Below the pieces are notes generated by a model. The model worked only from the letters and a program-made list of their open reading frames with translations, had not been told where the DNA came from and made no database searches. Shown piece by piece: positions 18,419 to 32,815 of a stretch of DNA of 64,000 bases (within the stretch, counting starts at the first letter, position 1; each line of letters opens with the position of its first letter). The position numbers and the translations under genes are program-made. The DNA is from an uncultured Candidatus Poseidoniales archaeon. Its GTDB lineage: Archaea > Thermoplasmatota > Poseidoniia > Poseidoniales > Thalassarchaeaceae. The DNA lies in NCBI GenBank assembly GCA_902560445.1, contig CACELO010000002.1:66468-130467 (forward strand), read 5' to 3'.

Positions 18419-20566
18419 TCAGTCTCTCCGACTAGCCATCGCTGCACCTAGAAGAGCCAGAGCACCAAGTATTGGACCAAATCCTGGCAATACAGGCGGA
18501 GTAGCTGATGATTCTGACGAATACAGGGAAGCCCAGGTATCGTAAAACTCCATCTTGTCAATCTCCTCACCATCATAGTCGCTCCATTCAACAGACACCT
18601 CATCTCCTGGCGAGACCAGTCCGTCCCCATCGTGATCAGTGTAAGTAATCGTAACACCTTCCGCTTCTCCACCGGTTAGTGGGATGCTGAATTCGTTTGT
18701 GCAAGTACTTAGATCCGGCTGAACCATTTGGTCTTGATCCTCGTCATAAAACTCCTCACAGTCGCTGAGGAAGTGAACTTCGAAGTCGGTGATCGGAGCG
18801 TTGAGTGTCTGATTCTCCGCGACAAATCCGGTAGCGTCATTTCGCTCCATACCATCACCATCATCATCACTGTCGTCGTCATCATGGTCATGGTGCCTGT
18901 CAGCATCATCGTGAGTATGATCGGCCCCATCATCATGGTCATGATGATAGTCTCCATCTCCATGGTGGTGGTGACCTGCATCTTCTTCTGTTTCATGATG
19001 GTCGCCATCATCACTGTCGTCGTCATCACTGTCGTCGTCATCAGATAACATGTCCACAATGCCATCGATGAAGCACTGCATCTCGTCGATGTCGATTAGG
19101 TCGCTTCCATCGTAGTCGCAATCTTCGAACAGGATTGAGACCTCGTCGTAATCCAGTTCGGGGTTTGTTGCATTGGAATCCCAGGAATCCTGGAACTCTT
19201 GGAAACTCATGTATCCATCGTCATTTGCATCTACAGATTCCATAGCCTCTTCTGGAGTAGTGGAGCCATCGCCATCATCCTCTGAACCTGACCACTCGTC
19301 TCCGTCCGCAGAGTGCTCGAATTCCTCGCTCTGTCCGAAGTCGTCAGTGCAGTGCCAGTCTGAGTCATGGTATTCACAGTAATACCACCAATTTTCCCAG
19401 TCCTCATCATCCTGAGATATCTTGCACCACCAACGAGAATCCTCTCCTGCATCAGTAGCATCAGAGTAACCCTCCCATTCGCAGTAGCCGTCATGATAAC
19501 TGTCCCAACTGATATGATTGCCATCATCATGGTGGCCGTCGTCATCGTACTCATCGGAACCGTCCTCGCAATTTTCATAGCCGTCATTCACCCAATCCCA
19601 AGGAATCCAAGTATTCCCACCATCGCATGGGAACATCTCTTCTGAGTCGTCATCACCGTGGTCATCGTGGTCGTTGACATCGTTGAATATCTCAGAATCA
19701 AACCAAACTGGAATCGAGGTTCTTGGAAGTGTGTCATCCACCTCGATGACTATTGCATCTCCCCACATCACCTCATACGTTAGTGATGAGGTCGCAGAGC
19801 CGTTGTCGCTTTCTATGCTCATGGACATAAGGTCTTGATTCTGATCTATGTGAATGGTCATAGTAATCTCTGCTCCACCCTCCGTATACTCCATTGTCAT
19901 TGTCTGGGTTTCCATATCATCACTCATAGTGATTGTAATGACTGCGTCTTCTGGTAAGTCACCATCATCATCATCATCATCCCCATCATCATCACCTCCA
20001 TCATTGAAGAGTCCGGCCTGTTCTGCGATTACCTCCAAAACATTGGGGGTTGCATCTCGAGTTTGATAGGAGCCGGTTGTTGCCTCTCCTTGAACCATCA
20101 TTCCGCCCACCAACAGGTGGACATTGACAACCTCGCCGACCTGCACATGAGTATATTCCATTTGCAATAACCCTGCAATTGAAATTGAGTTGTGAACATA
20201 GACTGAGTCATTGTCAAGATCCGCCATTACAATGTCCTCTATCTCGACATCCATCTGCATCCCCAAATCTTGGTTCCACTCGCTCGATGAAATCGACTGA
20301 GAGTATCCTGCCTTCGGACTCTCTTCTAGCATATCTTCGATACTTCCCATATCAGTCATGGCCTCGATGAAAGTCTCCGTGGTGGCTATGTAAATACAGT
20401 CTCCAACTAACTCGGCCGTGGCGTTTTCTTCGTAATTGGCTGCATTCTCGTCCATACATCCTAAGACATCGTCAACAAGTTCTTCCAAATCTTCACCAGA
20501 AAGGCAACCTGCCATTGGAGTAGCTATCAAAATTAGGCTAGCGAGTAAGGCATACGCGCGATTCAT
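18419..20566 (-). CDS. extremely acidic, His/Asp-rich surface protein with an N-terminal lipobox and a C-terminal PGF-CTERM
   Basis: Signal/lipobox 'LILIATPMAGCLSG'. EF-hand loop 'DANDDGYMSFQE'. His/Asp tract. C-terminus 'LPGFGPILGALALLGAAMASRRD'. Confidence 0.8.
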   Translation of the reverse strand: MNRAYALLASLILIATPMAGCLSGEDLEELVDDVLGCMDENAANYEENATAELVGDCIYIATTETFIEAMTDMGSIEDMLEESPKAGYSQSISSSEWNQDLGMQMDVEIEDIVMADLDNDSVYVHNSISIAGLLQMEYTHVQVGEVVNVHLLVGGMMVQGEATTGSYQTRDATPNVLEVIAEQAGLFNDGGDDDGDDDDDDGDLPEDAVITITMSDDMETQTMTMEYTEGGAEITMTIHIDQNQDLMSMSIESDNGSATSSLTYEVMWGDAIVIEVDDTLPRTSIPVWFDSEIFNDVNDHDDHGDDDSEEMFPCDGGNTWIPWDWVNDGYENCEDGSDEYDDDGHHDDGNHISWDSYHDGYCEWEGYSDATDAGEDSRWWCKISQDDEDWENWWYYCEYHDSDWHCTDDFGQSEEFEHSADGDEWSGSEDDGDGSTTPEEAMESVDANDDGYMSFQEFQDSWDSNATNPELDYDEVSILFEDCDYDGSDLIDIDEMQCFIDGIVDMLSDDDDSDDDDSDDGDHHETEEDAGHHHHGDGDYHHDHDDGADHTHDDADRHHDHDDDDSDDDGDGMERNDATGFVAENQTLNAPITDFEVHFLSDCEEFYDEDQDQMVQPDLSTCTNEFSIPLTGGEAEGVTITYTDHDGDGLVSPGDEVSVEWSDYDGEEIDKMEFYDTWASLYSSESSATPPVLPGFGPILGALALLGAAMASRRD
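18851..19045 (-). repeat. GAT/GAC/CAT-rich low-complexity coding tract (Asp/His run)
   Basis: Encodes 'SDDDDSDDDDSDDGDHHETEEDAGHHHHGDGDYHHDHDDGADHTHDDADRHHDHDDDDSDDDGDG'. It generates spurious ORFs in other frames and on the other strand. Confidence 0.8.
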
Positions 20567-21833: not shown

Positions 21834-22721
21834 TCAATTTCGAGTCCAAGATGGAATGAATACATCTCTCCAATTCGGAGTTGCAAGATATTCTTCCTCG
21901 GTAAAGAATGACCTTGCATAAATCGAAATAAAGTCGATAATTAGAACAACAATGTAGATAATAATCAGGTATGCAAATACCTTGTCATATTGTAAAAATC
22001 TAAGATACAGATCGATGTAATATCCAATTCCTCCTGCACCGACAATGCCGATTACAGTACCAGAACGGAAATTATATTCAAACATGAATATCGAGTGAGA
22101 AATTAGATCATTTGCGGCTTCAGGAATAACTACGTTAACTGCTACTTCCCAACGACTCAAGCCTATTGCATTCGCCGCATCCAAAGGAGTTTTTGTCAGA
22201 CCCTCAATTGATTCATACTGTAATTTTCCAAGATATCCCACTGTGTAAATTGTCATTGCCAGAACGCCAGCTAATGGACCTAAGCCGACTAGAATAACCA
22301 AGAAAATAGCCCAAATCAATGCTGGAAGACTCCTACATGCTGAGATAAGAAAGCGGGTAGGGTAAGATATCCATCGCGGGCTTAAATTTCTTGAAGCCAT
22401 GATTGACAAAGGTAATGTTACAACCATACCAAATACAGTTGCAACAAACGCAATCTTTAGCGTCTCAATAACTCCCTTCCAAGCGGTTGAGCAAGTGAAA
22501 TCGAAAATTGGTTGGGCAGTACAAACAGGATATGTTTGAGGCTCTAGAACGCTCATATCTGGTGGCCAAAGAGACTGAAAGAAGAATCTGACAAGATTAT
22601 CTGGGCCACCTGCTAATCTACCCCAGTCGCCAACCATTCCGTTTAGAATTACAATTGCAAGCAAAAGGAGAATCCATAGCACCAGAGCCATCTTTTCGCC
22701 ATCTACTGCTATCTTCTTCAT
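21834..22721 (-). CDS. ABC importer permease, PhnE family
   Basis: 295 aa, 6 TM. It has the binding-protein-dependent transport motif region 'IEGLTKTPLDAANAIGLSRWEVAVNVVIPEA' and a 4-nt overlap with the ATPase gene. Confidence 0.8.
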   Translation of the reverse strand: MKKIAVDGEKMALVLWILLLLAIVILNGMVGDWGRLAGGPDNLVRFFFQSLWPPDMSVLEPQTYPVCTAQPIFDFTCSTAWKGVIETLKIAFVATVFGMVVTLPLSIMASRNLSPRWISYPTRFLISACRSLPALIWAIFLVILVGLGPLAGVLAMTIYTVGYLGKLQYESIEGLTKTPLDAANAIGLSRWEVAVNVVIPEAANDLISHSIFMFEYNFRSGTVIGIVGAGGIGYYIDLYLRFLQYDKVFAYLIIIYIVVLIIDFISIYARSFFTEEEYLATPNWRDVFIPSWTRN

Positions 22722-23428
22722 GAATTCAACACCACAGCTTTTGGTTTGGTAATGAATGGATTCACTCTTCCATCATCAATAACTAGGAGGCGATTTGCCA
22801 TTGACTTGGCTCTAGAAATATCATGCTCGACAACGATTAATGCTGAATTATTATCTTTCACGTAGCTTGTCACGCTTTCCAAAACCATAGCCAATGTTTC
22901 TTCGTCTAATTCACTCAAAAATTCATCTGCTAGAATTAATCTTGGTCGCTGAGCCAATGTTCTGGCCGTTGCGACTCTTCTCTGTTGGCCACCGGACAAC
23001 CTCCTAATTGGTTCTCTTGACTTTTCCTTAAGCCCCATTTGTTGAATTGCATTGGTAACTCGTTCCTTTCTTTCCTTCCTATCATTAGTTCCAGCTCGAG
23101 CACCCAACATTACATTGTGCCTAACACTTGCATGACGAACTAAACCCAATTTTTGTGGAATATACCCTAGTGCGCCACGGAGAGGTTTCGACGGAATTTC
23201 TGCACCACACACTGTGATCGAACCGGAAATTGGACGTATTAGTCCCGCAATTGTACCAAGTAAAGTTGACTTCCCGATACCAGAAGGGCCCGCTATGGCC
23301 ACTATTTCACCAGGGAATATTTCGAGATTGGGAATACTGACTAAGGGTGATTCAGTTTCATATCCGATTACTATATCTTCGAGGGAGACAATCGGATTTT
23401 CTGAACCCATACCCTCGGACAACTCCAA
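22718..23428 (-). CDS. ABC importer ATP-binding protein, PhnC family
   Basis: Walker A 'GPSGIGKST', signature 'LSGGQQRRVATART', Walker B 'ILADEFLSELD'. Confidence 0.85.
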   Translation of the reverse strand: MELSEGMGSENPIVSLEDIVIGYETESPLVSIPNLEIFPGEIVAIAGPSGIGKSTLLGTIAGLIRPISGSITVCGAEIPSKPLRGALGYIPQKLGLVRHASVRHNVMLGARAGTNDRKERKERVTNAIQQMGLKEKSREPIRRLSGGQQRRVATARTLAQRPRLILADEFLSELDEETLAMVLESVTSYVKDNNSALIVVEHDISRAKSMANRLLVIDDGRVNPFITKPKAVVLNS

Positions 23429-23441
23429 AGCCCCCTTGTAA

Positions 23442-23457
23442 TTTAGGCGGCCCTAAA
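23442..23457. promoter_or_regulatory. 16-bp palindrome TTTAGGCGGCCCTAAA (copy 1 of 4); candidate operator
   Basis: An inverted repeat 14 nt 5' of the phnC-like ATG. ATATAT (23461-23466) lies just upstream on the transcribed strand. Confidence 0.55.
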
Positions 23458-23514: not shown

Positions 23515-25611
23515 TTATATCGATTCTTGCAAGAATGAATAGGCTCCGGGTACAACACTTACCACCTCAGATAGCAAGCCAAGATGTTCTTGTGAATTTG
23601 TTCTAACAATCCCTGTACCATCGAGTATATTGTTTAGAATTTCATCACCACAGATTTCCCTATTATTATCTGAATTTACCTTGTGTGTAGAAATATCGTA
23701 ACAACCAGTATATGTTCCAAATCCGGGTCTAGAATAATTCTCTAGATACATCTGATAATTCAAAGTAACTAAGGCGTTGAGAATAGCGGCTCTACTTCTA
23801 GAATCAAGAGTCGAAGGGTTGTACATTACAGATTCACTTGGAGACACACCGACTTGACCCAAAGATAGGTACTGGTCAATTTCCATGCACCAATCTTGAT
23901 TTTCTTGTTCTTCTTGATTACAATTTTCTTCTAGTGCATCTTCTCCGACGAATGCTATTTCACTTACATTTTCGGATAGGCAGCTAATCGCACCTACCTC
24001 TCCCGCAGGGGTGCTTGAAGATGAAAGAAGAGATGATTGATTTCCAAAATAGCCGCGTATTGTTTCGATAATCTCGACATTTTCTTGATTAGGCGAATAA
24101 TACTCATTTTCAATTAGATAATGAATAGGAAGAATTGTGTGAATTGGAGATTGAGAACCGGTGAAGCAAGACACTCTTCCCTGCATCATTGCAAATGGAT
24201 CGGTGCTAGATTCATTGTCTGAACTTGCGGTAGCCAATTCTCCTAAATTTGAGACTAAGGCCATAGAATACCGCTGAGTCAATTGATCTTTGTTTTGTAT
24301 GGCTCCTAGAACTGATAGATTATGTAATTTCCATCCAATTAACGAAGAAGATGAAGGAAGAAATCCAATATGAGCCTCGCCTGTTTCAATTGATTCAATC
24401 ATTTCTGATTGAGAATTAACATAGTGAATTGAAACATTAATTCCTAATTCTATGGATAAAAATTCGGCTAAATGAATCGGGTCACTATTGGTTTCTAATT
24501 TTGATTCATCTAGTTCAAATGCAACAATTAATTCTTCTATTGTTATTGTTATTGATTGACTTCCATTGTCGGTATAATAAGCTGAAATCCCAGGGATATT
24601 CGAAACCAGAGGCGTGTATATACCAAGATGAGATTCAGAATCTGTAGAAACTACACCCTTTGTCCCTAGTGTGTTGTAGAGAATTTCGCTGTAATCCTCG
24701 TTTGAACTAAAGTCAATTAGAAAATCCGTAAGTTCACTGATTACTAAATCATCATCAAAATTAGAATGAGTCATGAAAACATCACTGGGGGTCTTAGCGA
24801 ATGGTTCGAGAGAAACATATCTCGAGGCATCCAAACACCATTCTTCGACATTATTTCCATTTTCTGTGGTGCAGTATTGAGAGGCCGTGTTATCCTTCGC
24901 AAATGCAACCTCACCGGAACCATCTGAAAGACATCTTAGAGCCCCTGAAAATCCATAGTACTGTGTGCCAGGTTCCGGAATTGATGAGTTTTCGTTAAAG
25001 AATTGAAAAATTGTATTTCTTAGAGATTCGATATCATTTGGATCGCCAATTACATTTGCATACCCCAATCCAAGGAAGAATCCCATTGGAACCATCATTC
25101 CTGTTGAGTGTAACCAACCCGTATGGCAGGAAGTTTTGCCTTGCATCAGTGAGAATGGATTTGTTAGCGGATCATCGTCAAAATATGCTTCTGCGATATC
25201 GCTATCGTCGAGAACCCAAGCGAGAGAATTGTAGTATGTCCTGCCGTCTGATTTTTGGTCCGCTGCAAAAGCCTGCAAACCGTATTGATTCCACCCAATC
25301 CAAGCAGCACCGCTATCCATTAGAGCGATGTCGGCATTTCCAAACCTTAGTGCCTCGAGTATCGCTGCTTCTGAATCAACGGCATATATTGTAAAATCAA
25401 ATCTACTGTTTTGGGTAAGAATTTCTGCCAGCATCTCAGGATTAGTTTCTGACTCAAGCATACCTTCGGACACTTCGAATGCCAGAACAATGGGAGTTCT
25501 TGTTTGATTATTTGATTCTTCAGAATCACTCAAGCAACCAGAGAGAGTGCTAGAAAGCAGGATAATGGTATAACAAATGACCAGTATTTTGTAATGTCTT
25601 TTTGTCGGCAT
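23515..25611 (-). CDS. bilobal transferrin-like/PhnD-superfamily substrate-binding lipoprotein (two tandem PBP-type lobes)
   Basis: Lipobox 'STLSGCLSD'. Lobe 1 (about aa 40-345) and lobe 2 (about aa 350-698) are paralogous to each other and to the 28476..29546 protein. Lobe 1 carries 'TSCHTGWLHSTGMMVPMG' and 'YYGFSGALRCLSDGSGEVAFAKD'. Confidence 0.8.
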   Translation of the reverse strand: MPTKRHYKILVICYTIILLSSTLSGCLSDSEESNNQTRTPIVLAFEVSEGMLESETNPEMLAEILTQNSRFDFTIYAVDSEAAILEALRFGNADIALMDSGAAWIGWNQYGLQAFAADQKSDGRTYYNSLAWVLDDSDIAEAYFDDDPLTNPFSLMQGKTSCHTGWLHSTGMMVPMGFFLGLGYANVIGDPNDIESLRNTIFQFFNENSSIPEPGTQYYGFSGALRCLSDGSGEVAFAKDNTASQYCTTENGNNVEEWCLDASRYVSLEPFAKTPSDVFMTHSNFDDDLVISELTDFLIDFSSNEDYSEILYNTLGTKGVVSTDSESHLGIYTPLVSNIPGISAYYTDNGSQSITITIEELIVAFELDESKLETNSDPIHLAEFLSIELGINVSIHYVNSQSEMIESIETGEAHIGFLPSSSSLIGWKLHNLSVLGAIQNKDQLTQRYSMALVSNLGELATASSDNESSTDPFAMMQGRVSCFTGSQSPIHTILPIHYLIENEYYSPNQENVEIIETIRGYFGNQSSLLSSSSTPAGEVGAISCLSENVSEIAFVGEDALEENCNQEEQENQDWCMEIDQYLSLGQVGVSPSESVMYNPSTLDSRSRAAILNALVTLNYQMYLENYSRPGFGTYTGCYDISTHKVNSDNNREICGDEILNNILDGTGIVRTNSQEHLGLLSEVVSVVPGAYSFLQESI

Positions 25612-25908
25612 TGATCAAAACCTCTGTCTACCCGACTCTTGCTCAGGATGCTGATTTTTCAATGTTAGTCCTGAAGGAAATAACATAATTTTCAGTTTAA
25701 TCCTGGTGTTGACAGGGGAACCTGTGATGTGTACAGATGCTCCTATGTGACGCTGTTAGAGTCCCCCGTGCCAACGGGTATTGCCAATGCTATTGGCTAA
25801 GGTTGTTGACAGGGGGCCTATTGCGTTCGAATACGAAATTCGAATGTAGGTGTCAGGCGCTGATACGCCCCCTGCCAACTGTTTTGTCTTATCGACTGGT
25901 TACGTACT

Positions 25909-27144
25909 TCATTGGAGAGTTCCAATGTCTTCGGCTGTGATGCCAAATGCATCCCAGACTGGCTGTAGATAGGAGCGGATATCCGCTTCGTAATCTGCTG
26001 TTGCATCTCCATCATTCTTCAGATCGAAGATTTCGAGAATCTTGTCATTGTAGTAATTAGCATACCACCCAAATGCCTCGCACTCCTCCTCTGACATACC
26101 CTCATGCTGAGCGTGTGTCACTGAATTATAGCATCCTGTGAATTCCTCTCCACTCGGATCGTTTGGAGAAGTGTAGTTCTCCAGATACATGTATGCCTCG
26201 CAGGATGCCTGTGAGCTATCCGATGAGACCGTGTGAGATACCATGTTGTAGCAGATCGAAGTGTACTCAGCGACATATGCCTCGATTACCCTGTAGAAGG
26301 CGTGACCCTCTGCCTGGTGCTTGTCGTAGTCTGCAGTATCTCCAGCAGCTAGGTCGTCCGTCATCTTTGATGCGTACCTCACAGAAGCCTGTGAGTAGAC
26401 GATTACAATATTCTTCAGAACCTCGTCGCGTGCGTCGACTACTCCTTGCATATCTTCATTCTGAAGTGCAGTCAAGCCAGCGTTCATTGCGGCTAGAGTA
26501 GCGATGTTTGTAGCATCACCAGTCCCAAAGTTGCCCCCTCTCTTGGCAGCGGTTGCATATGGCCCACATCCATCGTAATCATGGTTGGAATCGTCAGGAC
26601 CATGGTAGAAAGCCCATCCTTCGTCCCAAGCGTGTTGAGCGTCATCGGCCCCCCAGTTTCCTGCTTCCGCCTTGATGATTGCAGCGTTGAGTTCATGGAT
26701 TGCATAAGCAGTCATCACACCATTCTGGATTCCCTTTTCGACTGCTTGATCTCTGACTGTGTCAGATTCTCCCTCGAAAGGACCTGTGCCATCAATAGCC
26801 GCAGATACGAAGTCATTCCATGAGCCGTCTGCATCATAGTATGCGTCGTAGGCGTGGTTCTTGCCGGAAGCATCTGCGAAGCCCATGAGGGTCCTGTAGG
26901 AACCGTCGGACTTCTCCGCGTGCTTTCCATCATCATAGATATCCTTCACACCGTCCCAATCGTATGCACCAGAGAGGTCCTTAATATCGCAGACATCACC
27001 CATTAACATTCGGTGATTATCAACGTTGGAAGCATACGTGTATCCTCCATCTGCGTCATCAAGATCTACATCATCTCCTGCACAACCGGCAATCGCACTG
27101 CCGATTAATACTAAAGTCATCATTAAAGTCATTGTTCTATTCAT
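25909..27144 (-). CDS. acidic lipoprotein of unknown function (mostly helical, Cys-pair modules near the C-terminus)
   Basis: Signal/lipobox 'LIGSAIAGCAGDD'. 411 aa. Two operator-like palindromes lie directly 5' of the gene. Confidence 0.7.
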   Translation of the reverse strand: MNRTMTLMMTLVLIGSAIAGCAGDDVDLDDADGGYTYASNVDNHRMLMGDVCDIKDLSGAYDWDGVKDIYDDGKHAEKSDGSYRTLMGFADASGKNHAYDAYYDADGSWNDFVSAAIDGTGPFEGESDTVRDQAVEKGIQNGVMTAYAIHELNAAIIKAEAGNWGADDAQHAWDEGWAFYHGPDDSNHDYDGCGPYATAAKRGGNFGTGDATNIATLAAMNAGLTALQNEDMQGVVDARDEVLKNIVIVYSQASVRYASKMTDDLAAGDTADYDKHQAEGHAFYRVIEAYVAEYTSICYNMVSHTVSSDSSQASCEAYMYLENYTSPNDPSGEEFTGCYNSVTHAQHEGMSEEECEAFGWYANYYNDKILEIFDLKNDGDATADYEADIRSYLQPVWDAFGITAEDIGTLQ

Positions 27145-27146
27145 AG

Positions 27147-27162
27147 TTTAGGTCTCCCTAAA
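27147..27162. promoter_or_regulatory. 16-bp palindrome TTTAGGTCTCCCTAAA (copy 2 of 4); candidate operator
   Basis: Begins 2 nt 5' of the ATG (27144) of the 411-aa lipoprotein gene. Confidence 0.55.
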
Positions 27163-27190: not shown

Positions 27191-27206
27191 TTTAGGGCGC
27201 CCTAAA
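27191..27206. promoter_or_regulatory. 16-bp perfect palindrome TTTAGGGCGCCCTAAA (copy 3 of 4); candidate operator
   Basis: Lies in the divergent intergenic region 27145-27299 and abuts the A/T-rich 'GTATATGAAA' (27181-27190). Confidence 0.55.
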
Positions 27207-27299: not shown

Positions 27300-27905
27300 T
27301 TGGTTTTAGTTACAAGGAGAGGATTAGTCTTGAGGAATTTGGGGCATAGATTGGGGGCTTCTGGTACCAAAATGGAAAATACCATTGACGGGCTTATGAA
27401 TTCATTAGAACAGGTAAATAATAGAAAATTTAAGTATTGGGAATTTGATATTAGAGAATCTTTGGATGGAATAATTTTTGTCTTTCATGATGATCAAATA
27501 CTTGTAGATGGAGAATTAATCGAAACCGCCAAATTGAATTTCTCTGAAATAATGAAAGCGGGTGAGGATTTGGGGGTAAAGATACCTACATTTTCAGAAG
27601 TTGTTGAAATATTGGGTGACCGGAAAGAAGATGTCATGGTTGAAGTGAAAGAATTGAGAACTGATGCCGCTAGAAGAACCGTAATCACTGCGATTTCTAG
27701 TAAACCAAATTGGAAACTGATGGCTACTCCAACTAGATTCTTGGAATCTTTTCCTAGTGAATCCAGGGAGTATTGGGAGCGATTTACTCGAGATTTGGAC
27801 GTAGAATTCGTTAGAGTTGGCCGCCATAAATTGGACCTTTTCAGCGCTTCTAAATCCTATTTTAGGTGGAAATTTGCTCGATTTAAATGGTTTTTCGGGA
27901 TTTAA
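27300..27905 (+). CDS. glycerophosphodiester phosphodiesterase (GDPD)-like protein
   Basis: 'LGHRLGASGTKMENTIDG...YWEFDIRESLDGIIFVFHDD' matches the GDPD N-terminal HR..EN...E.D...DG..V..HD pattern. It is short (201 aa). Confidence 0.6.
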   Translation: MVLVTRRGLVLRNLGHRLGASGTKMENTIDGLMNSLEQVNNRKFKYWEFDIRESLDGIIFVFHDDQILVDGELIETAKLNFSEIMKAGEDLGVKIPTFSEVVEILGDRKEDVMVEVKELRTDAARRTVITAISSKPNWKLMATPTRFLESFPSESREYWERFTRDLDVEFVRVGRHKLDLFSASKSYFRWKFARFKWFFGI

Positions 27906-27968: not shown

Positions 27969-28403
27969 ATGTTGAAGAAAATGGTCAGTACTGATGAGTT
28001 AATTGTGGCGCTAAATAATGCTCTCGCTTGGGAATTAAGGGCTATTGCAATGTATGCTCACTATTCCGCATACGTTTCAGGGATTCATAGATTACAACTT
28101 TCGGTATTCTTCAATAATGAAGTAACAGAATCAATTGCGCATGCTTCAACCGTAAGATCCGCTATAGTGAAATTACACGGTAAGGCCACTACGGAGAGGG
28201 CAGAAGACCCTATTTTACACTCAATGGACTTCCGAGATATGTTGGAAGAGGCACACAAAACTGAGTTGAAAGCTAGCGAGACATATGGAGAAATTTTACC
28301 AATGGTTGAGCAAATTGGGGATAGCGAACTTTTTGATGCCCTGGAAGTTATTTACTTTGATGAACTGAGATCTGTAGAAGAATTGAGAATGATGCTTGGT
28401 TGA
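27969..28403 (+). CDS. ferritin-like four-helix-bundle protein (bacterioferritin/Dps-like superfamily)
   Basis: 144 aa. 'ALNNALAWELRAIAMYAHYS', 'EVTESIAHASTVRSAIVKLHG', 'LEEAHKTELKA' and 'FDELRSVEE' resemble the E / E..H / E / E..H di-iron pattern. The spacing of the first E..H is one residue off. Confidence 0.55.
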   Translation: MLKKMVSTDELIVALNNALAWELRAIAMYAHYSAYVSGIHRLQLSVFFNNEVTESIAHASTVRSAIVKLHGKATTERAEDPILHSMDFRDMLEEAHKTELKASETYGEILPMVEQIGDSELFDALEVIYFDELRSVEELRMMLG

Positions 28404-28429: not shown

Positions 28430-28445
28430 TTTAGGGTGCCCTAAA
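28430..28445. promoter_or_regulatory. 16-bp palindrome TTTAGGGTGCCCTAAA (copy 4 of 4); candidate operator
   Basis: 31 nt 5' of the ATG at 28476. TTTAAA (28406-28411) lies upstream. Confidence 0.55.
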
Positions 28446-28475: not shown

Positions 28476-29546
28476 ATGGAAAAAACTAGTTGGGCTGGTT
28501 GGGCCAAAGCTAACAAAGCACTTTTGCTCGCTGGATTAGTGCTATCTGCGACCGTATTGTATCTCATTTTCGACATTAATTACGAACAATGTGATGATCA
28601 AGATAACTGTATTACAATCGCTTTTGAGGTACAAGATGACTATTTGTATTTTGGAAAAGAGAACCCTCAGCACTTGGCAGACAAAATGAGTGCTCTGACT
28701 GGTATGGATGTTGAAATAATGCCTGTATCGAATTCCGGCGCGATAATCGAGGCTATCAATAATGGCAATGCGGATATTGGATTTGTAGATGGAGCGGCCG
28801 CTTGGCTTGCATGGGAAGTTTACGATTTGGACGTGCTAGCGGCAGAGTGGAAATTTGATCAAAGGACGTACTATAATGCGGCAGCCTGGGTGAAAAAGGA
28901 CTCTGAAATTGCAGACGCGTATCTAGATGATGATCCAGATACAGACCCATTTGCTTTAATGAATGGAAAAACGTCTTGCCATACAGGATGGCTGAAAAGT
29001 GCTGGGATGTTGATTCCAATGGGTTACTTGATTGGAAATGGGTATGCCGAGGTGCGTGGAGATCCTGAAGAAATTACTTCACTACGAGATACAGTGACGC
29101 ATTTCTTCAACGAAGATTCAAGCATACCTGACGGAGGTACTCAATATTCCGGATATAAGGGGGCATTGAAGTGTATGATGACTGATCGCGGAGACGTTGC
29201 TTTAGTCAAGGATACAGCATATATGCTCTACTGTGACGAAAATGAGGACGGAATTGCAGATGGTCCTGATTGGTGTTTGGATAGAGATGAGCTCGTTATG
29301 CTCGAGTCATTTGGTCGAGCACCGAGTCACCCCGCTTTGTATAATCCCTCAGCTATGAATAACGAAACGGTCGAACTAATTCAAAATGCATTGGTGGATA
29401 TGAATAATGATGAAGAAGGTACAAAGATACTCTCCGATGTCTTAAACACTGAAGGAATGGTTGTTACGAATGCTACTGCTCACCTAGGCACATATGGTGC
29501 GGCTGTAGAGAACGTCCCTGGAATACAAGCATTTTTTGAGGATTGA
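28476..29546 (+). CDS. monolobal transferrin-like substrate-binding protein (PhnD superfamily) with N-terminal membrane anchor/signal
   Basis: Motifs 'NADIGFVDGAAAW', 'RTYYNAAAWVKKDS', 'GKTSCHTGWLKSAGMLIPMG', 'YSGYKGALKCMMTDRGDVALVKD' and 'APSHPAL' align with transferrin N-lobe ligand and anion-site motifs (recalled from the human serotransferrin sequence). Confidence 0.8.
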   Translation: MEKTSWAGWAKANKALLLAGLVLSATVLYLIFDINYEQCDDQDNCITIAFEVQDDYLYFGKENPQHLADKMSALTGMDVEIMPVSNSGAIIEAINNGNADIGFVDGAAAWLAWEVYDLDVLAAEWKFDQRTYYNAAAWVKKDSEIADAYLDDDPDTDPFALMNGKTSCHTGWLKSAGMLIPMGYLIGNGYAEVRGDPEEITSLRDTVTHFFNEDSSIPDGGTQYSGYKGALKCMMTDRGDVALVKDTAYMLYCDENEDGIADGPDWCLDRDELVMLESFGRAPSHPALYNPSAMNNETVELIQNALVDMNNDEEGTKILSDVLNTEGMVVTNATAHLGTYGAAVENVPGIQAFFED

Positions 29547-29592: not shown

Positions 29593-30798
29593 ATGAGAGT
29601 GACCATCACTATCCTAATTTTATTGATAATATCTCTATTTTCTGGATGTTTTTCAGACGATGGAGATGATTTTGATTGGACTGATCCCCAAACAACAGAG
29701 TGCAATTTAGGCAATAACCTAACTTGTACTAATTTGTTTCCGGGAGCTGGTACTCCTCATCACTCAGAAGTAAATCCTCAAACTAATGAATTATGGATAA
29801 TTTATCTCAGTGGAATGGTAAAAATTTGGCAAGATGATGAACTAATACAAGCTGGTGACTTAAGTGAAATTGTAAATAGATGCCATACAGAACAAGGATT
29901 GCTTGGATTTGCATTCGATGCCAACTATAATTCTTCCAAACAACTATTGTTATCATATGTGGAAAAAGGCAGCTGCGAAGGGGCGAATAATGCAGACCTC
30001 GTTCTTGCTTCAGTTGTTGTTACTGATGATGATATGATAAATTTGGACTCGTTAATCGTCTTGAAAACCGTAGAACAACCATACAGGAATCATAACGGGG
30101 GGCATTTACATGGTTTGGGTAATGGAGAATACCTCTGGGGAATTGGAGACGGAGGTGGAGCTAACGACCCAGAAAAGAATGGGCAGAATTCTGAAAATTT
30201 ATTGGGCACTATTGTTTACTTCCAATACTCAAATGGCGATGTTAATCCGATAATGGATTCAGAAAATGGAAACCCCTACATCTTGCACTATGGTTTGCGA
30301 AATCCATGGAAATTCGACGTGGGCCCTAATGAGGAACTATGGATTGCTGATGTCGGACAAAATTGTTGGGAAGAAATTAATTTGGTAAATTTGGTAAACA
30401 AATCAAACCTTGGGTGGTCAGAAAAAGAAGGATTCAGTGATTTTTCCGAAGGTGGAAGTTGTGAAGGAGGAGTTCTATCTGAAAATAATGAATTTACAGA
30501 CCCTGTCTTTGTCTATGGTCACAATAACGGAAATTGTTCCATAACCGGTGGCTTTTGGACTGAGAATACAATAATCTCAGACCAAGGTGGTTATCTGTTT
30601 GGAGACTTTTGTTCTGGTTCGCTATGGATTCTTTCCAATGGTGTAAATCACACATGGAAAGAGACCTATCTTGGTAACGTGGGGGGACTAATTGTAGGGT
30701 TTGGAGAAGGGGCTAATGGTGAGCTTCTGGTCTTTTTCTGGACTGGAGAAATCATACAAATCACTCAATCCGCTGCCGCCGATAGCAATATCGTGTGA
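29593..30798 (+). CDS. beta-propeller lipoprotein, PQQ-dependent glucose/sorbosone dehydrogenase-like
   Basis: Lipobox 'ISLFSGCFSDD'. 'EQGLLGFAFD', 'YRNHNGGHL', 'GDGGGANDP', 'YGLRNPWKFD' and 'ADVGQNCWEEIN' match the GSDH-family pattern. Confidence 0.7.
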   Translation: MRVTITILILLIISLFSGCFSDDGDDFDWTDPQTTECNLGNNLTCTNLFPGAGTPHHSEVNPQTNELWIIYLSGMVKIWQDDELIQAGDLSEIVNRCHTEQGLLGFAFDANYNSSKQLLLSYVEKGSCEGANNADLVLASVVVTDDDMINLDSLIVLKTVEQPYRNHNGGHLHGLGNGEYLWGIGDGGGANDPEKNGQNSENLLGTIVYFQYSNGDVNPIMDSENGNPYILHYGLRNPWKFDVGPNEELWIADVGQNCWEEINLVNLVNKSNLGWSEKEGFSDFSEGGSCEGGVLSENNEFTDPVFVYGHNNGNCSITGGFWTENTIISDQGGYLFGDFCSGSLWILSNGVNHTWKETYLGNVGGLIVGFGEGANGELLVFFWTGEIIQITQSAAADSNIV

Positions 30799-30817
30799 TA
30801 CCTGCTCCAGTATTGTG

Positions 30818-32815
30818 ATGAGACGCCAAGGCGCGCTTAGAATCGTGGTCATGATTACGATTATTGGAATGATGATTTCTTCGTTACAAATCGGCTACCA
30901 ACAAGGTGGTCTTGATGAATCTCAAGACAGAAGAGAACAGCTCGGCCCTGATGAGCCTACACTGGAGGAGCGATGTAGCGTCCTTACTTTCGAGGATATG
31001 TTTGAGTATACTAAAGCAGTATTCAATTTCACTATTGCCAATGATTGGAGTTCTGCCGAAATTGAAGCAGTTGCTTGGGTAAATGGGACTTTGGCAGATG
31101 ATGTAAGACAGAGTTTAGATGAATATATTGCACAAATCTACCCAAGTGGCGATGATGGCTGGATTTCTACCGATGAAAGGGAGGGAGTCAGAGCTATTGC
31201 TTCGGAGTGTGTTCAATACACGTTTACTAGAATGGGTATGCGTGATGGAAGTCCTCACAGAGGAGGTGACGGTACCGATTGGAAAAACACATCTTGGAAC
31301 GAAGACGAGGTCCTAGTAGAAGAATGGAATCTAGTCCCTCCTCGACATTCGGAATCGAGAGAATGTTCAGGGATTGGTAGTGGTAGCGATTGCTACGAGG
31401 TTCCGGTATATCCGGATAGTGAACGAGATTGCGACACCGAGGTAGATTCATCGAGCAGTCAAGATGAATGTAGAATGAAGTTATGGCTAAATGCTACCAT
31501 GATAATCTCCGAGATAAATGATCCAAGTGACTTCACAATAGCCTATAATGCCTCAAACATGAGTGGGGCTGAATATCATATCAAATTCCCCGTAACCGAA
31601 GGACTCCGACTAGATATGTGGGAGGAATGTGAAGGACGAGACGTGCAAGTGGATATGGGTGATTTTGCTGGTGTGGCTCCTCTGAGAGGTAGTTGTATTG
31701 GTGACGGTTCTAGCAGCTATGAACTTAATGAAAACGAAGATGGAAGTCTAACTTACTCCTTCTATCCCAACATGCCTCAGTGGCCTGTAGGAGAGGACCT
31801 GTTTGCCGACTTTACAACTGCACCAATCCCAGTGGACGACCCTCCTGTCTGGACTGATAGCGCACCGACAGATGGAGCCTGGTTCCCTCGTGCGAGTGGG
31901 GGGGCACAGATTATCGCGGACTGGAATGAAGTTCAAAATTGGTTCAATGATGAGGCTGGAGTATCGAACCTTGAGATGAATTGTAGAGGTGATGCAGGAT
32001 TAGTAATTACCTACTCACAACGAGAGTTGTCGATGGATGTACCAAGAGGTCAGGCAGGAGAGGTCACCTGTGAAGCAATCGACAGTTCTGGCCAATCCTC
32101 AGGAAATAGAACTTGGAATGTAGGAGTTCCATTCCAAATTTCAACTACAGATACTGAACTATCAGACCCACATCCGATTACTCTCTCTCCAACCGCTGGC
32201 TGGCCTGATCTATCTGTAGAACTCGGATTTTCCTCAAGCTTCGAAGAGGCAGGAACATATTACGGCCCATATTCAATCCAAGGCTCGGAAATAACTCAAG
32301 ATATTGCTGTGGTGGGACTTGTCCCCGGTCCAGTATATGTCGCTGTAATAGTAACCGGAGAAGGAGTTTATAGTTTGCAAGCGACTTATGATTTGGGGAT
32401 TCAAAAGGCCAGCAGTCCTCCAATAATGACAGTCACCACCGAAGGGTGGGATGGTAATTCATGGTCAATGAGTGGTCAATTCTCCGACCCCGATGGTGAA
32501 ACGATTAGTTTCAGCCTGATGATTGATGGGGCCTCAGTTGGAAGTATTACGGTCAGTGGCAATATGTGGTCTACACCTGCGATTGATTTCTCAGTATGGA
32601 CAGAAGGTTCACATATTGTTGAGGTTCAAGCCTGTGATGAGTCTGGCCTATGTTCAAGTCAGCAACGTAGCGTTGACAATACTCATTTGTTCGTTGATCC
32701 TGAACCTGAACCTGAACCACCGAAGGATAACTCTTCGGTTCTTCCCTCAATGGGATTGGCCGGTCTGATTCTTGCGGCATCTGCCGCACTCATATACTCG
32801 GGCCGACGCGACTGA
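30818..32815 (+). CDS. secreted acidic surface protein with Ig-like C-terminal domain and PGF-CTERM-like tail
   Basis: ORF track 30701..32815. I start at ATG 30818 (MRRQGALRIVVMITIIGMMISSLQ signal/anchor), which removes the overlap with the upstream gene. The C-terminus is 'LPSMGLAGLILAASAALIYSGRRD'. Confidence 0.7.
   Translation: MRRQGALRIVVMITIIGMMISSLQIGYQQGGLDESQDRREQLGPDEPTLEERCSVLTFEDMFEYTKAVFNFTIANDWSSAEIEAVAWVNGTLADDVRQSLDEYIAQIYPSGDDGWISTDEREGVRAIASECVQYTFTRMGMRDGSPHRGGDGTDWKNTSWNEDEVLVEEWNLVPPRHSESRECSGIGSGSDCYEVPVYPDSERDCDTEVDSSSSQDECRMKLWLNATMIISEINDPSDFTIAYNASNMSGAEYHIKFPVTEGLRLDMWEECEGRDVQVDMGDFAGVAPLRGSCIGDGSSSYELNENEDGSLTYSFYPNMPQWPVGEDLFADFTTAPIPVDDPPVWTDSAPTDGAWFPRASGGAQIIADWNEVQNWFNDEAGVSNLEMNCRGDAGLVITYSQRELSMDVPRGQAGEVTCEAIDSSGQSSGNRTWNVGVPFQISTTDTELSDPHPITLSPTAGWPDLSVELGFSSSFEEAGTYYGPYSIQGSEITQDIAVVGLVPGPVYVAVIVTGEGVYSLQATYDLGIQKASSPPIMTVTTEGWDGNSWSMSGQFSDPDGETISFSLMIDGASVGSITVSGNMWSTPAIDFSVWTEGSHIVEVQACDESGLCSSQQRSVDNTHLFVDPEPEPEPPKDNSSVLPSMGLAGLILAASAALIYSGRRD

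What the first reader, a model, noticed from the sequence alone, without database searches (positions are those of the whole stretch)
23515..25611. Bilobal (tandem-duplicated) transferrin-like lipoprotein with an intact-looking N-lobe and a degenerate C-lobe
Seen in sequence:
- The 698-aa lipoprotein consists of two paralogous lobes, about aa 40-345 (nt 24577-25494) and about aa 350-698 (nt 23518-24564).
- Each lobe ends in the same 'G(V/I)V.T(D/N)S..HLG....V..(I/V)PG..(A/S)(Y/F)' motif that also ends the monolobal paralogue.
- Lobe 1 keeps Asp ('ALMDSGAAW'), Tyr ('RTYYNSLAWV'), 'TSCHTGWLHSTG' and Tyr ('QYYGFSGALRC'), but has Asp instead of His ('TPSDVFM').
- Lobe 2 has lost most of these ('GFLPSSS', 'VSCFTGSQS', 'GEVGAISC', 'SPSESVM').

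Inference: this is an independent lobe duplication mirroring the N/C-lobe architecture of animal transferrins. The C-lobe may have been repurposed, for example for docking to the permease or binding another ligand.
Basis: partly seen in the sequence, partly recalled or inferred. Interest (0 to 1): 0.7.

Follow-up and report, generated by a model that had tools for sequence, protein, structure and literature searches.

The report
Archaeal two-lobed transferrin-like iron-binding lipoprotein
An abundant marine archaeon (Marine Group II) has a membrane-anchored, two-lobed relative of animal transferrin next to an ABC importer, which probably means the "phosphonate transporter" annotated in these archaea takes up iron, and in this lineage the second lobe has lost its metal site.

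Summary
ORF 23515-25611(-) encodes a 698-aa lipoprotein of two homologous lobes (27% identity, E=9e-38). It hits Pfam Transferrin and Phosphonate-bd, and its best solved-structure matches are all animal transferrins.

Lobe 1 keeps Asp, Tyr and Tyr but has Asp in place of the His ligand. Lobe 2 has lost all four ligands. The nearby 356-aa one-lobed paralogue keeps the full set.

The gene is not a mis-assembly: 318 species genomes, by the titles of the 80 kept Poseidoniales apart from two probably mis-binned MAGs, encode a relative. In the 80 loci kept it is ~700 aa and, where the contig extends, is followed by an ATPase and a PhnE-type permease.

The duplication arose within the archaeal lineage (92% bootstrap), separately from the animal one. 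Most orthologues have two intact sites. The degenerate C-lobe arose once (98%) in a Thalassarchaeaceae subclade. It coincides with a FEA1-like (phytotransferrin-family) gene inserted between a conserved operator and the gene, and it remains under purifying selection.

The same palindromic operator precedes FTR1 iron permeases in related contigs. The best reading is an iron-regulated ferric-iron ABC uptake system. The role of the C-lobe is unproven.

The parts
23515..25611 (-). Two-lobed transferrin-like substrate-binding lipoprotein, 698 aa
   Evidence: ORF. Pfam PF12974 3.6e-24 and PF00405 1.7e-20. Best PDB sequence hits are lactoferrins at 4e-21. AF2 model has pLDDT 81 and the Foldseek PDB top 50 are all transferrins.
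25534..25611 (-). Signal peptide with lipobox LSGC (aa 1-26)
   Evidence: Sequence. G25 and C26 are invariant in alignment A1. The AF2 model has helix 4-23 followed by a disordered linker at 24-35.
24577..25494 (-). Lobe 1 (aa 40-345). Site residues are D99, Y127, T164, H168, Y218, D277, which is a likely metal-binding but altered site.
   Evidence: omega is 0.05-0.075. 98 of 139 canonical-conserved columns are kept.
23518..24564 (-). Lobe 2 (aa 350-698). All four metal ligands are lost (P419, R447, P535, E593), but the fold and the disulfide cysteines are retained.
   Evidence: omega is 0.06-0.20. Of 161 canonical-conserved columns, 59 are kept and 36 lost, the lost ones including the ligand neighbourhoods.
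23650..23754 (-). Cys-loop module of about 35 aa inserted in lobe 2 (aa 620-654, YQMYLENYS...TGCYDISTHKVNSDNNREIC)
   Evidence: Pairwise hit to the C-terminus of the FEA1-like protein. G630, T635, C637, Y638, H643 and C654 are invariant in 61 homologues. AF2 predicts beta strands here. The regex finds it only in this protein family and in FEA1-like proteins.
22718..23428 (-). ABC ATPase, PhnC-like
   Evidence: PF00005 1.5e-31. Best NCBIfam hit is TIGR02315 but it is below cut-off. It directly follows the binding-protein gene in nearly all of the 80 loci whose contig extends that far.
21834..22721 (-). ABC permease of the PhnE family
   Evidence: TIGR01097 scores 233.7 bits against a cut-off of 216.7. 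Position conserved in the related loci.
25909..27144 (-). FEA1-related lipoprotein (phytotransferrin/ISIP2a family) with two copies of the Cys-loop module. It is the first gene behind the double operator.
   Evidence: NF038033 scores 358 bits against a cut-off of 250, and Pfam Fea1 gives 3.2e-19. Modules.
27191..27206 (.). Operator palindrome TTTAGGGCGCCCTAAA (distal box upstream of the FEA1-like gene)
   Evidence: 4 hits in the window against 0.19 expected. Its position is conserved in the related loci.
27147..27162 (.). Operator palindrome (proximal box, ending 2 nt before the FEA1-like ATG)
23442..23457 (.). Operator palindrome between the binding-protein gene and the ATPase gene, just downstream of a TATA-like ATATAT
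28430..28445 (.). Operator palindrome upstream of the one-lobed paralogue
28476..29546 (+). One-lobed transferrin-like paralogue, 356 aa, with an N-terminal membrane anchor and the full D-Y-T-K-Y-H site
27969..28403 (+). Ferritin-like (Dps-type) protein, 144 aa
   Evidence: PF00210 1.1e-15.
29593..32815 (+). GSDH-like beta-propeller lipoprotein, followed by a ~700-aa surface protein with no Pfam domain that is the most constant neighbour of the operator. Both lie downstream of the one-lobed paralogue.
   Evidence: PF07995 3.3e-22. No Pfam hit for the 704-aa ORF. Its homologues sit divergently at the operator in most loci and next to FTR1 in others.

Best explanation
The gene encodes the substrate-binding lipoprotein of a ferric-iron ABC importer in a Marine Group II archaeon (Ca. 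Thalassarchaeum, MGIIb-O1).

**The binding protein.** Each lobe is a PhnD-type periplasmic-binding-protein domain that carries, or once carried, the transferrin iron site: Asp, Tyr, Tyr, His, plus a Thr and a Lys (Arg in animals) that would hold a carbonate. The protein hangs from the membrane by an N-terminal lipid. It would capture dissolved Fe(III) and pass it to the PhnE-type permease and ATPase encoded directly downstream.

**Origin of the two lobes.** They arose by a tandem duplication inside the archaeal lineage, not from the animal duplication. In most Poseidoniales both lobes are intact.

**This lineage.** A FEA1-like (phytotransferrin-family) lipoprotein gene was inserted between the operator and the binding-protein gene. 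Three states co-occur:
- The distal C-lobe lost its metal site but stayed under selection.
- The N-lobe swapped His for Asp.
- An intact one-lobed paralogue is kept nearby.

**Inferred mechanism.** The FEA1-like protein, the one-lobed protein, or both now do the primary capture. Lobe 1 remains the lobe that loads the permease. The C-lobe, with its invariant Cys-loop module that is also repeated in the FEA1-like protein, serves as a structural or docking domain.

**Shown here:** homology, ligand pattern, gene order, operator, phylogeny and selection. **Inferred:** iron as the substrate, the hand-off between proteins, and the C-lobe role.
For: **Family and fold**
- Pfam Transferrin scores 73.9 bits against a cut-off of 20.3.
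- The best PDB sequence hits are lactoferrins, 4e-21.
- The Foldseek top 50 are all transferrins, 6e-27.

**Ligands**
- The D-Y-T-K-Y-H set is intact in both lobes of 84 of 117 orthologue clusters and in the paralogue.

**Not PhnD**
- The PhnD equivalog model scores 40.9 bits against a cut-off of 261.
- No phosphonate catabolism genes were found in the flanking ORFs scanned between window positions 7 and 51 kb (the 2,161-aa ORF 35991-42476 was not scanned).

**Iron context**
- A FEA1-related lipoprotein lies upstream (358 bits against a cut-off of 250) and a ferritin-like gene lies nearby.

**Gene order**
- The order binding protein, ATPase, PhnE permease is conserved in nearly all of the 80 loci whose contig extends far enough.

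**Operator**
- The palindrome TTTAGGGNNCCCTAAA occurs 4 times in the window against 0.19 expected, all in this island.
- In the 80 loci, 174 of 180 hits lie at the starts of these genes.
- The same box lies directly upstream of FTR1-family iron permease genes (PF03239, 2.6e-40) in related contigs.

**Phylogeny**
- The archaeal lobes form one clade (92%), and the degenerate C-lobes form one clade (98%).

**FEA1 link**
- Among loci with at least 1.8 kb of upstream sequence, the counts are: degenerate C-lobe with FEA1 upstream 24, degenerate without 3, intact with 0, intact without 39.

**Selection**
- omega is 0.05-0.075 for lobe 1 and 0.06-0.20 for lobe 2.

**Shared module**
- The Cys-loop module is found only in this protein family and in FEA1-like proteins.
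Against: - There is no experimental metal-binding or transport data for any member.
- The permease passes the curated PhnE equivalog cut-off, and the ATPase is most like PhnC. The transporter is therefore of the phosphonate type, and a cation passing through it is unproven.
- Lobe 1 of this protein lacks the His ligand and the basic anion-binding residue (D277, H168), so its chemistry may differ from transferrin.
- The regulator that binds the operator is unknown. A tblastn probe found no DtxR or Fur homologue in the window.
- The iron link of the operator rests on its association with FTR1 and FEA1 genes.
- The link between FEA1 and the degenerate lobe is probably one evolutionary event, so the Fisher p-value overstates independence.
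- The relative orientation of the lobes is uncertain (pTM 0.56).
- The tree is a simple NJ tree.
Confidence: 0.62

Rival explanations
1. It is what the annotation says: a PhnD-type binding protein of a phosphonate, phosphite or phosphate ABC importer. Its resemblance to transferrin would then only reflect shared ancestry of the two families.
For: - Pfam Phosphonate-bd scores 85.9 bits, slightly above the Transferrin score.
- The permease is above the PhnE equivalog cut-off and the ATPase is most like PhnC.
- JGI and NCBI name the cluster members phosphate/phosphonate binding proteins.
- Tully 2019 lists phosphonate transport as a core Marine Group II trait (PMC6336850).
Against: - PhnD equivalog TIGR03431 scores 40.9 bits against a cut-off of 261. 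Subfamily TIGR01098 scores 67.7 against 112.
- No PhnD appears among the best 60 of the 88 PDB sequence hits, nor among the Foldseek top 50; the remaining 28 sequence hits were not listed.
- The four transferrin metal ligands are conserved across orthologues.
- FEA1-like and ferritin-like genes are in the same island, and its operator is shared with FTR1 iron permeases.
- No phosphonate catabolism genes lie nearby.
Confidence: 0.13
2. The C-lobe has not become a passive docking domain. It has acquired a new small-molecule ligand, such as a siderophore, an organic iron complex, another metal or an anion. The protein would then import two different substrates.
For: - The lobe keeps its fold, its cysteines and Thr484, and it is under purifying selection.
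- From general knowledge, tandem binding domains with different specificities are known in GlnPQ-type importers.
Against: - The six former site positions differ widely among degenerate C-lobes. Examples are PRTSPE, GSTPYT, NSSDYD, NHTDYK and AHTDYE. This argues against a single new defined pocket.
- The columns lost cluster around the old site, and no new invariant set appears there.
Confidence: 0.12
3. The degenerate C-lobe is a redundant relic on its way to loss. It persists only because deleting it would destabilise the protein.
For: - Non-synonymous change in lobe 2 is about 2 to 3 times faster than in lobe 1.
- 36 of 161 formerly conserved columns are lost.
- One-lobed versions of the operon exist in L097 and L188, so one lobe is enough for function.
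Against: - omega stays between 0.06 and 0.20 across both shallow and deep comparisons.
- The lobe is retained at full length in all 33 degenerate-type species loci.
- The inserted module and the C-terminal segment remain invariant.
Confidence: 0.08

Closest known systems
Animal transferrins (serum transferrin, lactoferrin, ovotransferrin, melanotransferrin; Pfam PF00405)
   Same: - Two homologous type-II binding-protein lobes of about 330 aa each.
- They are the best sequence and fold matches.
- The Asp/Tyr/Tyr/His plus Thr site pattern is present in the archaeal family.
- Single-lobe degeneration also occurs in animals. From general knowledge, melanotransferrin and the inhibitor of carbonic anhydrase are examples.
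   Different: - The duplication is independent.
- The protein is lipid-anchored rather than secreted.
- It is encoded next to an ABC importer instead of working through receptor endocytosis.
- The anion-binding Arg is Lys in the archaeal family and His here.
- His249 is Asp here.
- The C-lobe carries an extra Cys-loop module.
PhnD phosphonate-binding proteins with the PhnCE ABC transporter
   Same: - Same Pfam family (PF12974).
- Same operon layout, with a PhnE-family permease and a PhnC-like ATPase.
   Different: - Far below the PhnD equivalog cut-off.
- Carries the transferrin metal ligands.
- Two lobes rather than one.
- Sits in an iron-related neighbourhood with no phosphonate catabolism genes.
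Bacterial ferric binding proteins FbpA/HitA/FutA/IdiA with their ABC importers ("bacterial transferrins")
   Same: The proposed job is the same: a binding protein that captures Fe(III), often through Tyr ligands and a synergistic anion, for an ABC importer.
   Different: - It is a different binding-protein family. No hit to those Pfam families was seen.
- It is lipid-anchored and has two lobes.
- Its permease is of the PhnE type.
FEA1 / ISIP2a phytotransferrin of algae (McQuaid et al. 2018, as summarised in PMC7676907)
   Same: - A member of this family (NF038033, Pfam Fea1) is encoded directly upstream and behind the same operator.
- It is an iron-starvation surface protein that binds Fe(III).
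   Different: - In algae it acts through endocytosis.
- Here it is a lipoprotein in an operon with a true transferrin-fold protein and an ABC importer.
- It carries 2 to 6 copies of the Cys-loop module.
Multi-lobed transferrins of unicellular eukaryotes, such as the ichthyosporeans Chromosphaera perkinsii and Amoebidium parasiticum. The triplicated Dunaliella transferrin is cited from general knowledge.
   Same: - Repeated lobe duplication in the same family.
- These proteins fall on the archaeal side of the split from animal transferrins.
- A three-lobed archaeal member also exists (P0006).
   Different: They are eukaryotic secreted proteins with signal peptides and no ABC operon.
Tandem substrate-binding domains of GlnPQ-type ABC importers (general knowledge)
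   Same: Two binding domains in one polypeptide serve one translocator.
   Different: In GlnPQ the domains are fused to the permease. Here they form a separate lipoprotein.

Membership tests
Transferrin family (PF00405) | Match to the family profile above its curated threshold | tested here: met
   73.9 bits against a cut-off of 20.3, E=1.7e-20.
Transferrin family (PF00405) | Transferrin lobe fold, with the closest solved structures being transferrins | tested here: met
   The AF2 model has pLDDT 81.3. The Foldseek PDB top 50 are all transferrins, best 6e-27, and the alignments span both lobes.
Transferrin family (PF00405) | Four iron ligands Asp, Tyr, Tyr, His in a lobe | tested here: not met
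   In this protein lobe 1 has D, Y, Y, D and lobe 2 has P, R, P, E. The feature is met in the 356-aa paralogue and in both lobes of 84 of 117 orthologue clusters.
Transferrin family (PF00405) | Synergistic-anion site with Thr and Arg at the helix N-terminus | tested here: inconclusive
   Thr is kept in both lobes. Arg is His in lobe 1, Ser in lobe 2, and Lys in canonical archaeal lobes.
Transferrin family (PF00405) | N and C lobes descend from the duplication shared by animal transferrins | tested here: not met
   Archaeal lobes form one clade (92%), separated from the animal lobes by a 98% split.
Transferrin family (PF00405) | Reversible Fe(III) binding together with carbonate | not testable with these tools
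   Requires purified protein.
PhnD phosphonate-binding protein | Score above the PhnD equivalog or subfamily cut-off | tested here: not met
   TIGR03431 scores 40.9 against 261.1. TIGR01098 scores 67.7 against 112.05.
PhnD phosphonate-binding protein | Encoded with PhnC and PhnE | tested here: met
   The permease scores 233.7 on TIGR01097 against a cut-off of 216.7. The ATPase is most like PhnC but below cut-off. The order is conserved in nearly all of the 80 loci whose contig extends far enough.
PhnD phosphonate-binding protein | Linked phosphonate catabolism genes (C-P lyase, phosphonatase and similar) | tested here: not met
   None among the ORFs scanned between window positions 7 and 51 kb. 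The rest of the genome was not seen.
PhnD phosphonate-binding protein | Binds phosphonate, phosphite or phosphate | not testable with these tools
   Requires a binding assay.
FbpA/FutA-type ferric binding proteins | Membership of those binding-protein families | tested here: not met
   Only PF12974 and PF00405 were hit.
Iron-regulated uptake operon | Shared operator with recognised iron genes | tested here: met
   The palindrome lies at the FEA1-like, ATPase and paralogue promoters. It lies at the same genes in 80 loci, and directly upstream of FTR1-family permease genes in L099, L119 and L154. The regulator and its metal dependence were not tested.
FEA1-related lipoprotein (NF038033), applied to the neighbouring gene | Score above the curated cut-off | tested here: met
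   358.2 bits against a cut-off of 250.

The most novel reading that the evidence does not exclude
Poseidoniales carry true prokaryotic transferrins: Fe(III)-carbonate binding proteins that still feed a PhnCE-type ABC importer. Three things would follow.
- The "phosphonate transport" counted as a core Marine Group II trait would really be their main iron uptake route.
- These proteins, or close prokaryotic relatives, would be the stock from which eukaryotic transferrins arose. Ichthyosporean multi-lobed forms branch between the archaeal and animal groups.
- In the FEA1-linked clade, the metal-free C-lobe would be a receptor for a phytotransferrin-like partner, forming a two-protein surface iron relay.
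Probability: 0.25. Interest if true: 0.85.

Novelty: new variant of a known kind. Interest (0 to 1): 0.72.

Why it matters
**Iron uptake in Marine Group II.** These are among the most abundant archaea in the surface ocean. The comparative-genomics papers I could read do not discuss how they obtain iron. One of them lists phosphonate transport as a core trait. If this operon imports iron, that trait is mis-assigned, and a new, widespread route of iron uptake enters ocean models.

**Transferrin biology.** The family offers three things:
- a natural, independent repeat of the two-lobe design;
- a prokaryotic form that joins the transferrin site to an ABC importer;
- a clade in which one lobe lost its metal site at the same time as a phytotransferrin-family partner arrived.

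This last point makes the long-standing question of why transferrins have two lobes open to comparative and experimental test.

Tried and rejected
- **Rfam** on window 21-31 kb at E up to 1 gave nothing.
- **Foldseek afdb50** was not available.
- **Searching the big protein database with the Cys-loop module** returned only fragments of the same gene.
- **Literature.** Ten searches found no paper describing an archaeal transferrin-like protein or Marine Group II iron uptake. The McQuaid 2018 paper itself is not held.
- **Mis-assembly** was considered and rejected because the gene is found in hundreds of genomes.
- **Chimeric assembly of L003** was considered unlikely because both flanks match sister genomes at 92-94%.
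- **The two hairpins between the FEA1-like gene and the binding-protein gene** are stable (z=-5.15). They show no covariation, because the four available sequences hardly differ, so nothing can be concluded.
Full report
**Observation.** The ORF at 23515-25611 on the minus strand encodes 698 aa. Its two halves are homologous: BLASTP of aa 1-349 against 350-698 gives 27% identity and E=9e-38. Lobe 1 is 44% identical to the 356-aa paralogue at 28476-29546 (E=7e-100), and lobe 2 is 30% identical to it (E=3e-53). The shared C-terminal motif is present in all three domains. The N-terminus has a basic stretch, a hydrophobic helix and LSGC, and Gly25-Cys26 are invariant in 61 homologues.

**Family and fold.**
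- Pfam gives Phosphonate-bd (3.6e-24) and Transferrin (1.7e-20).
- NCBIfam's PhnD equivalog scores 40.9 bits against a cut-off of 261.
- A sequence search of the PDB returns 88 hits; the best 60 listed are all transferrin-family proteins, and the best are lactoferrins at 4e-21. HMMER places D99, T164, H168 and Y218 on the lactoferrin Asp, Thr, Arg and Tyr.
- An AlphaFold2 model built on 61 homologues has mean pLDDT 81.3. Its Foldseek top 50 in the PDB are all transferrins, aligned over both lobes. The low TM-scores (~0.33) reflect a different or uncertain orientation of the lobes (pTM 0.56).

**Ligands.** Positions follow human transferrin numbering (D63, Y95, T120, R124, Y188, H249):

| Domain | D63 | Y95 | T120 | R124 | Y188 | H249 |
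|---|---|---|---|---|---|---|
| Lobe 1 | D | Y | T | H | Y | D |
| Lobe 2 | P | R | T | S | P | E |
| Paralogue | D | Y | T | K | Y | H |

**Source and spread.** The window is 100% identical to a contig of Candidatus Thalassarchaeum sp. ALOHA_A2.0_21, labelled MGIIb-O1 (L001). 318 GTDB species genomes encode a relative. The titles of the 80 kept name Poseidoniales or unclassified archaea, apart from one labelled MGIII and two (L025, L078) labelled as Rhodobacteraceae and Rhodobiaceae bacteria, which look mis-binned. In the 80 loci kept, the gene is about 700 aa wherever it is complete, and where the contig extends far enough it is followed by an ABC ATPase and a PhnE-family permease in nearly every case. 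A glycerol-3-phosphate dehydrogenase gene usually lies beyond, on the other strand. A mis-assembled fusion is excluded.

**The degenerate state is derived.**
- Of 117 two-lobed clusters, 84 have D-Y-T-K-Y-H in both lobes.
- Of the 80 species loci, 47 are intact in both lobes and 33 have a degenerate C-lobe.
- In an NJ tree of 160 lobes (Kimura distances, 200 bootstraps), animal lobes are split from everything else at 98%.
- All Marine Group II N-lobes, C-lobes and one-lobed paralogues form one clade at 92%.
- The one-lobed paralogues branch beside the two-lobed proteins rather than inside either lobe group.
- The degenerate C-lobes form one clade at 98%.

The duplication is thus independent of the animal one, and the loss of the C-lobe site happened once. 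By their record titles, the degenerate forms that carry a family name are Thalassarchaeaceae (MGIIb); many titles give no family.

**Link to a FEA1-like gene.** The gene upstream on the same strand (25909-27144) is a FEA1-related lipoprotein: NF038033 scores 358 bits against a cut-off of 250, and Pfam Fea1 gives 3.2e-19. This is the family of the algal phytotransferrin ISIP2a, as summarised in PMC7676907. Counts among loci with at least 1.8 kb of upstream sequence:

| | FEA1 upstream | No FEA1 upstream |
|---|---|---|
| Degenerate C-lobe | 24 | 3 |
| Intact C-lobe | 0 | 39 |

The Fisher p-value is 5e-15. Because the degenerate lobes are one clade, this is close to a single evolutionary event. 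It is not 66 independent trials.

In the same clade the N-lobe His is often replaced: D in 14 loci, N in 8, Q in 1, and retained in 9. The Lys varies as well (K, E, D, H, N). An intact one-lobed paralogue was found within 10 kb only in genomes with a degenerate C-lobe.

**The C-lobe is still constrained.**
- Nei-Gojobori omega is 0.05-0.075 for lobe 1 and 0.06-0.20 for lobe 2.
- Of 161 columns conserved in intact C-lobes, 59 are kept and 36 lost in degenerate ones. The losses fall on the ligands and their neighbours. The cysteines, tryptophans and C-terminal segment are kept.
- Lobe 1 loses only 5 of 139 columns.
- The former ligand positions differ from subclade to subclade. This fits loss of binding better than a new defined pocket.

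**A shared module.** Lobe 2 has a ~35-aa insertion (aa 620-654) that is absent from lobe 1 and from the paralogue. Its Gly, Thr, Cys, Tyr, His and Cys are invariant in all 61 aligned homologues, including those with two intact lobes. The FEA1-like protein has two copies of the same module, and its relatives have two to six. A regex for the module hits only these two protein families in 1.19 Mb of related loci and in the window. Its role is unknown. A common docking or anchoring role is a guess.

**Operator.**
- The palindrome TTTAGGGNNCCCTAAA (two mismatches allowed) occurs four times in the 64-kb window against 0.19 expected. Two copies flank a TATA-like element upstream of the FEA1-like gene, one lies upstream of the ATPase gene, and one upstream of the paralogue.
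- In the 80 loci, 174 of 180 hits lie at the starts of these genes (one more at a GDPD gene sharing the divergent promoter).
- In genomes with two intact lobes, the double box sits directly upstream of the binding-protein gene.
- In FEA1-linked genomes, it sits upstream of the FEA1-like gene. That gene was therefore inserted between the operator and the binding-protein gene.
- An exact-match scan of metagenome contigs returned 120 loci, of which at least 21 carry genes of this island.
- In three contigs that carry a glycerol-3-phosphate dehydrogenase gene 76-79% identical to the window's, the box lies between an FTR1-family iron permease gene (PF03239, 2.6e-40) and a homologue of the window's 704-aa ORF.

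This ties the operator to iron genes independently of the transferrin-like protein.

**Against the phosphonate reading.** No phosphonate catabolism gene was found among the ORFs scanned between window positions 7 and 51 kb; the 2,161-aa ORF 35991-42476 and the two ends of the window were not scanned. The neighbours are shikimate-pathway genes, an FtsX-type ABC system, aconitase and others. The permease does pass the PhnE cut-off, and this remains the main point in favour of the annotation.

**Literature.**
- Tully 2019 lists phosphonate transport as a core Marine Group II trait (PMC6336850).
- Neither Rinke 2019 nor Orellana 2019 contains the words iron or transferrin; Damashek 2021 lacks iron, and transferrin was not searched for there.
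- No paper in the held library describes an archaeal transferrin-like protein.
- NCBI names the proteins "PhnD/SsuA/transferrin family substrate-binding protein". The family resemblance is therefore already recorded in the annotation, but the function is not.

**Conclusion.** The most likely function is Fe(III) capture for an iron-regulated ABC importer. The degenerate C-lobe is a clade-specific, selected state that co-occurs with a FEA1-like partner, and its exact role is open.

Noticed in passing
window 23442-23457, 27147-27162, 27191-27206, 28430-28445; also L001-L080: A conserved 16-bp palindrome, TTTAGGGNNCCCTAAA, marks the promoters of the FEA1-like gene, the ABC ATPase gene and the one-lobed paralogue. 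In genomes without the FEA1-like gene it marks the promoter of the two-lobed gene itself. 174 of 180 hits in 1.19 Mb of related loci lie at these gene starts. The regulator is unknown.
   Followed up: yes
L099:5617-6531, L119:2170-3081, L154:2232-3128: In related contigs the same palindrome lies directly upstream of an FTR1-family iron permease gene. This gene sits next to the glycerol-3-phosphate dehydrogenase gene, at the position that the transferrin-like ABC operon occupies elsewhere.
   Followed up: partly
window 30701-32815 (+): A ~700-aa surface protein with no Pfam domain and a C-terminal hydrophobic anchor ending in RRD. Its homologues sit divergently at the operator in most Poseidoniales loci and next to FTR1 in others, which makes it the most constant neighbour of the operator. 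Its function is unknown.
   Followed up: partly
window 23650-23754 (-), and 26080-26253 (-): A ~35-aa Cys-loop module (Y.Y.ENY...TGCY[ND]..[ST]H, then 9-10 residues, then C). It occurs once in the C-lobe and 1-6 times in FEA1-like proteins. It was found in no other ORF of the window or of the 80 loci.
   Followed up: partly
window 25700-25880 (-): Two tandem GC-rich hairpins lie between the FEA1-like gene and the two-lobed gene (-74 kcal/mol, z=-5.15). Their four arms could pair in two alternative ways. There is no Rfam match. They are present in L001-L004 but show no covariation, because the sequences are nearly identical.
   Followed up: partly
L003:7549-9654: In one sister genome, the cassette of GSDH-like gene, one-lobed paralogue, GDPD-like gene and FEA1-like gene is replaced by a canonical two-lobed gene with its own double operator. 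That gene is 87% identical in nucleotides to the gene in L031. Both flanks match L001 and L002 at 92-94%.
   Followed up: partly
P0006; L097:2474-3451; L188:1169-2215: Lobe number varies in the family. A 1156-aa member has three intact lobes, with three module copies in the last lobe. One-lobed lipoproteins are also found in the same operon layout, with the ATPase, the permease and the operator.
   Followed up: partly
P0124, P0141: The nearest non-archaeal relatives include multi-lobed proteins of the ichthyosporeans Chromosphaera perkinsii (1894 aa, five lobes) and Amoebidium parasiticum. In the NJ tree they fall on the archaeal side of the 98% split from animal transferrins. This bears on where eukaryotic transferrins came from.
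   Followed up: no
L077 and P0121; L074: In some proteins (L077, titled Poseidoniaceae; the rep P0121; and L074), the N-lobe and C-lobe of the same protein group together (93% and 56% bootstrap). This suggests gene conversion between the lobes, or a second duplication.
   Followed up: no
window 18419-20566 (-): A 715-aa, very acidic surface protein with long Asp/His-rich runs (for example HHHHGDGDYHHDHDD) and a PGF-type C-terminal anchor. It is a conserved neighbour in L001-L012. It may bind metal.
   Followed up: no
window 27300-27905 (+) and 29593-30798 (+): A short GDPD-like gene and a GSDH-like beta-propeller lipoprotein gene travel with the one-lobed paralogue. They stay together through rearrangements: upstream of the FEA1-like gene here, and downstream of the permease in L025, L029, L030 and L034.
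   Followed up: no
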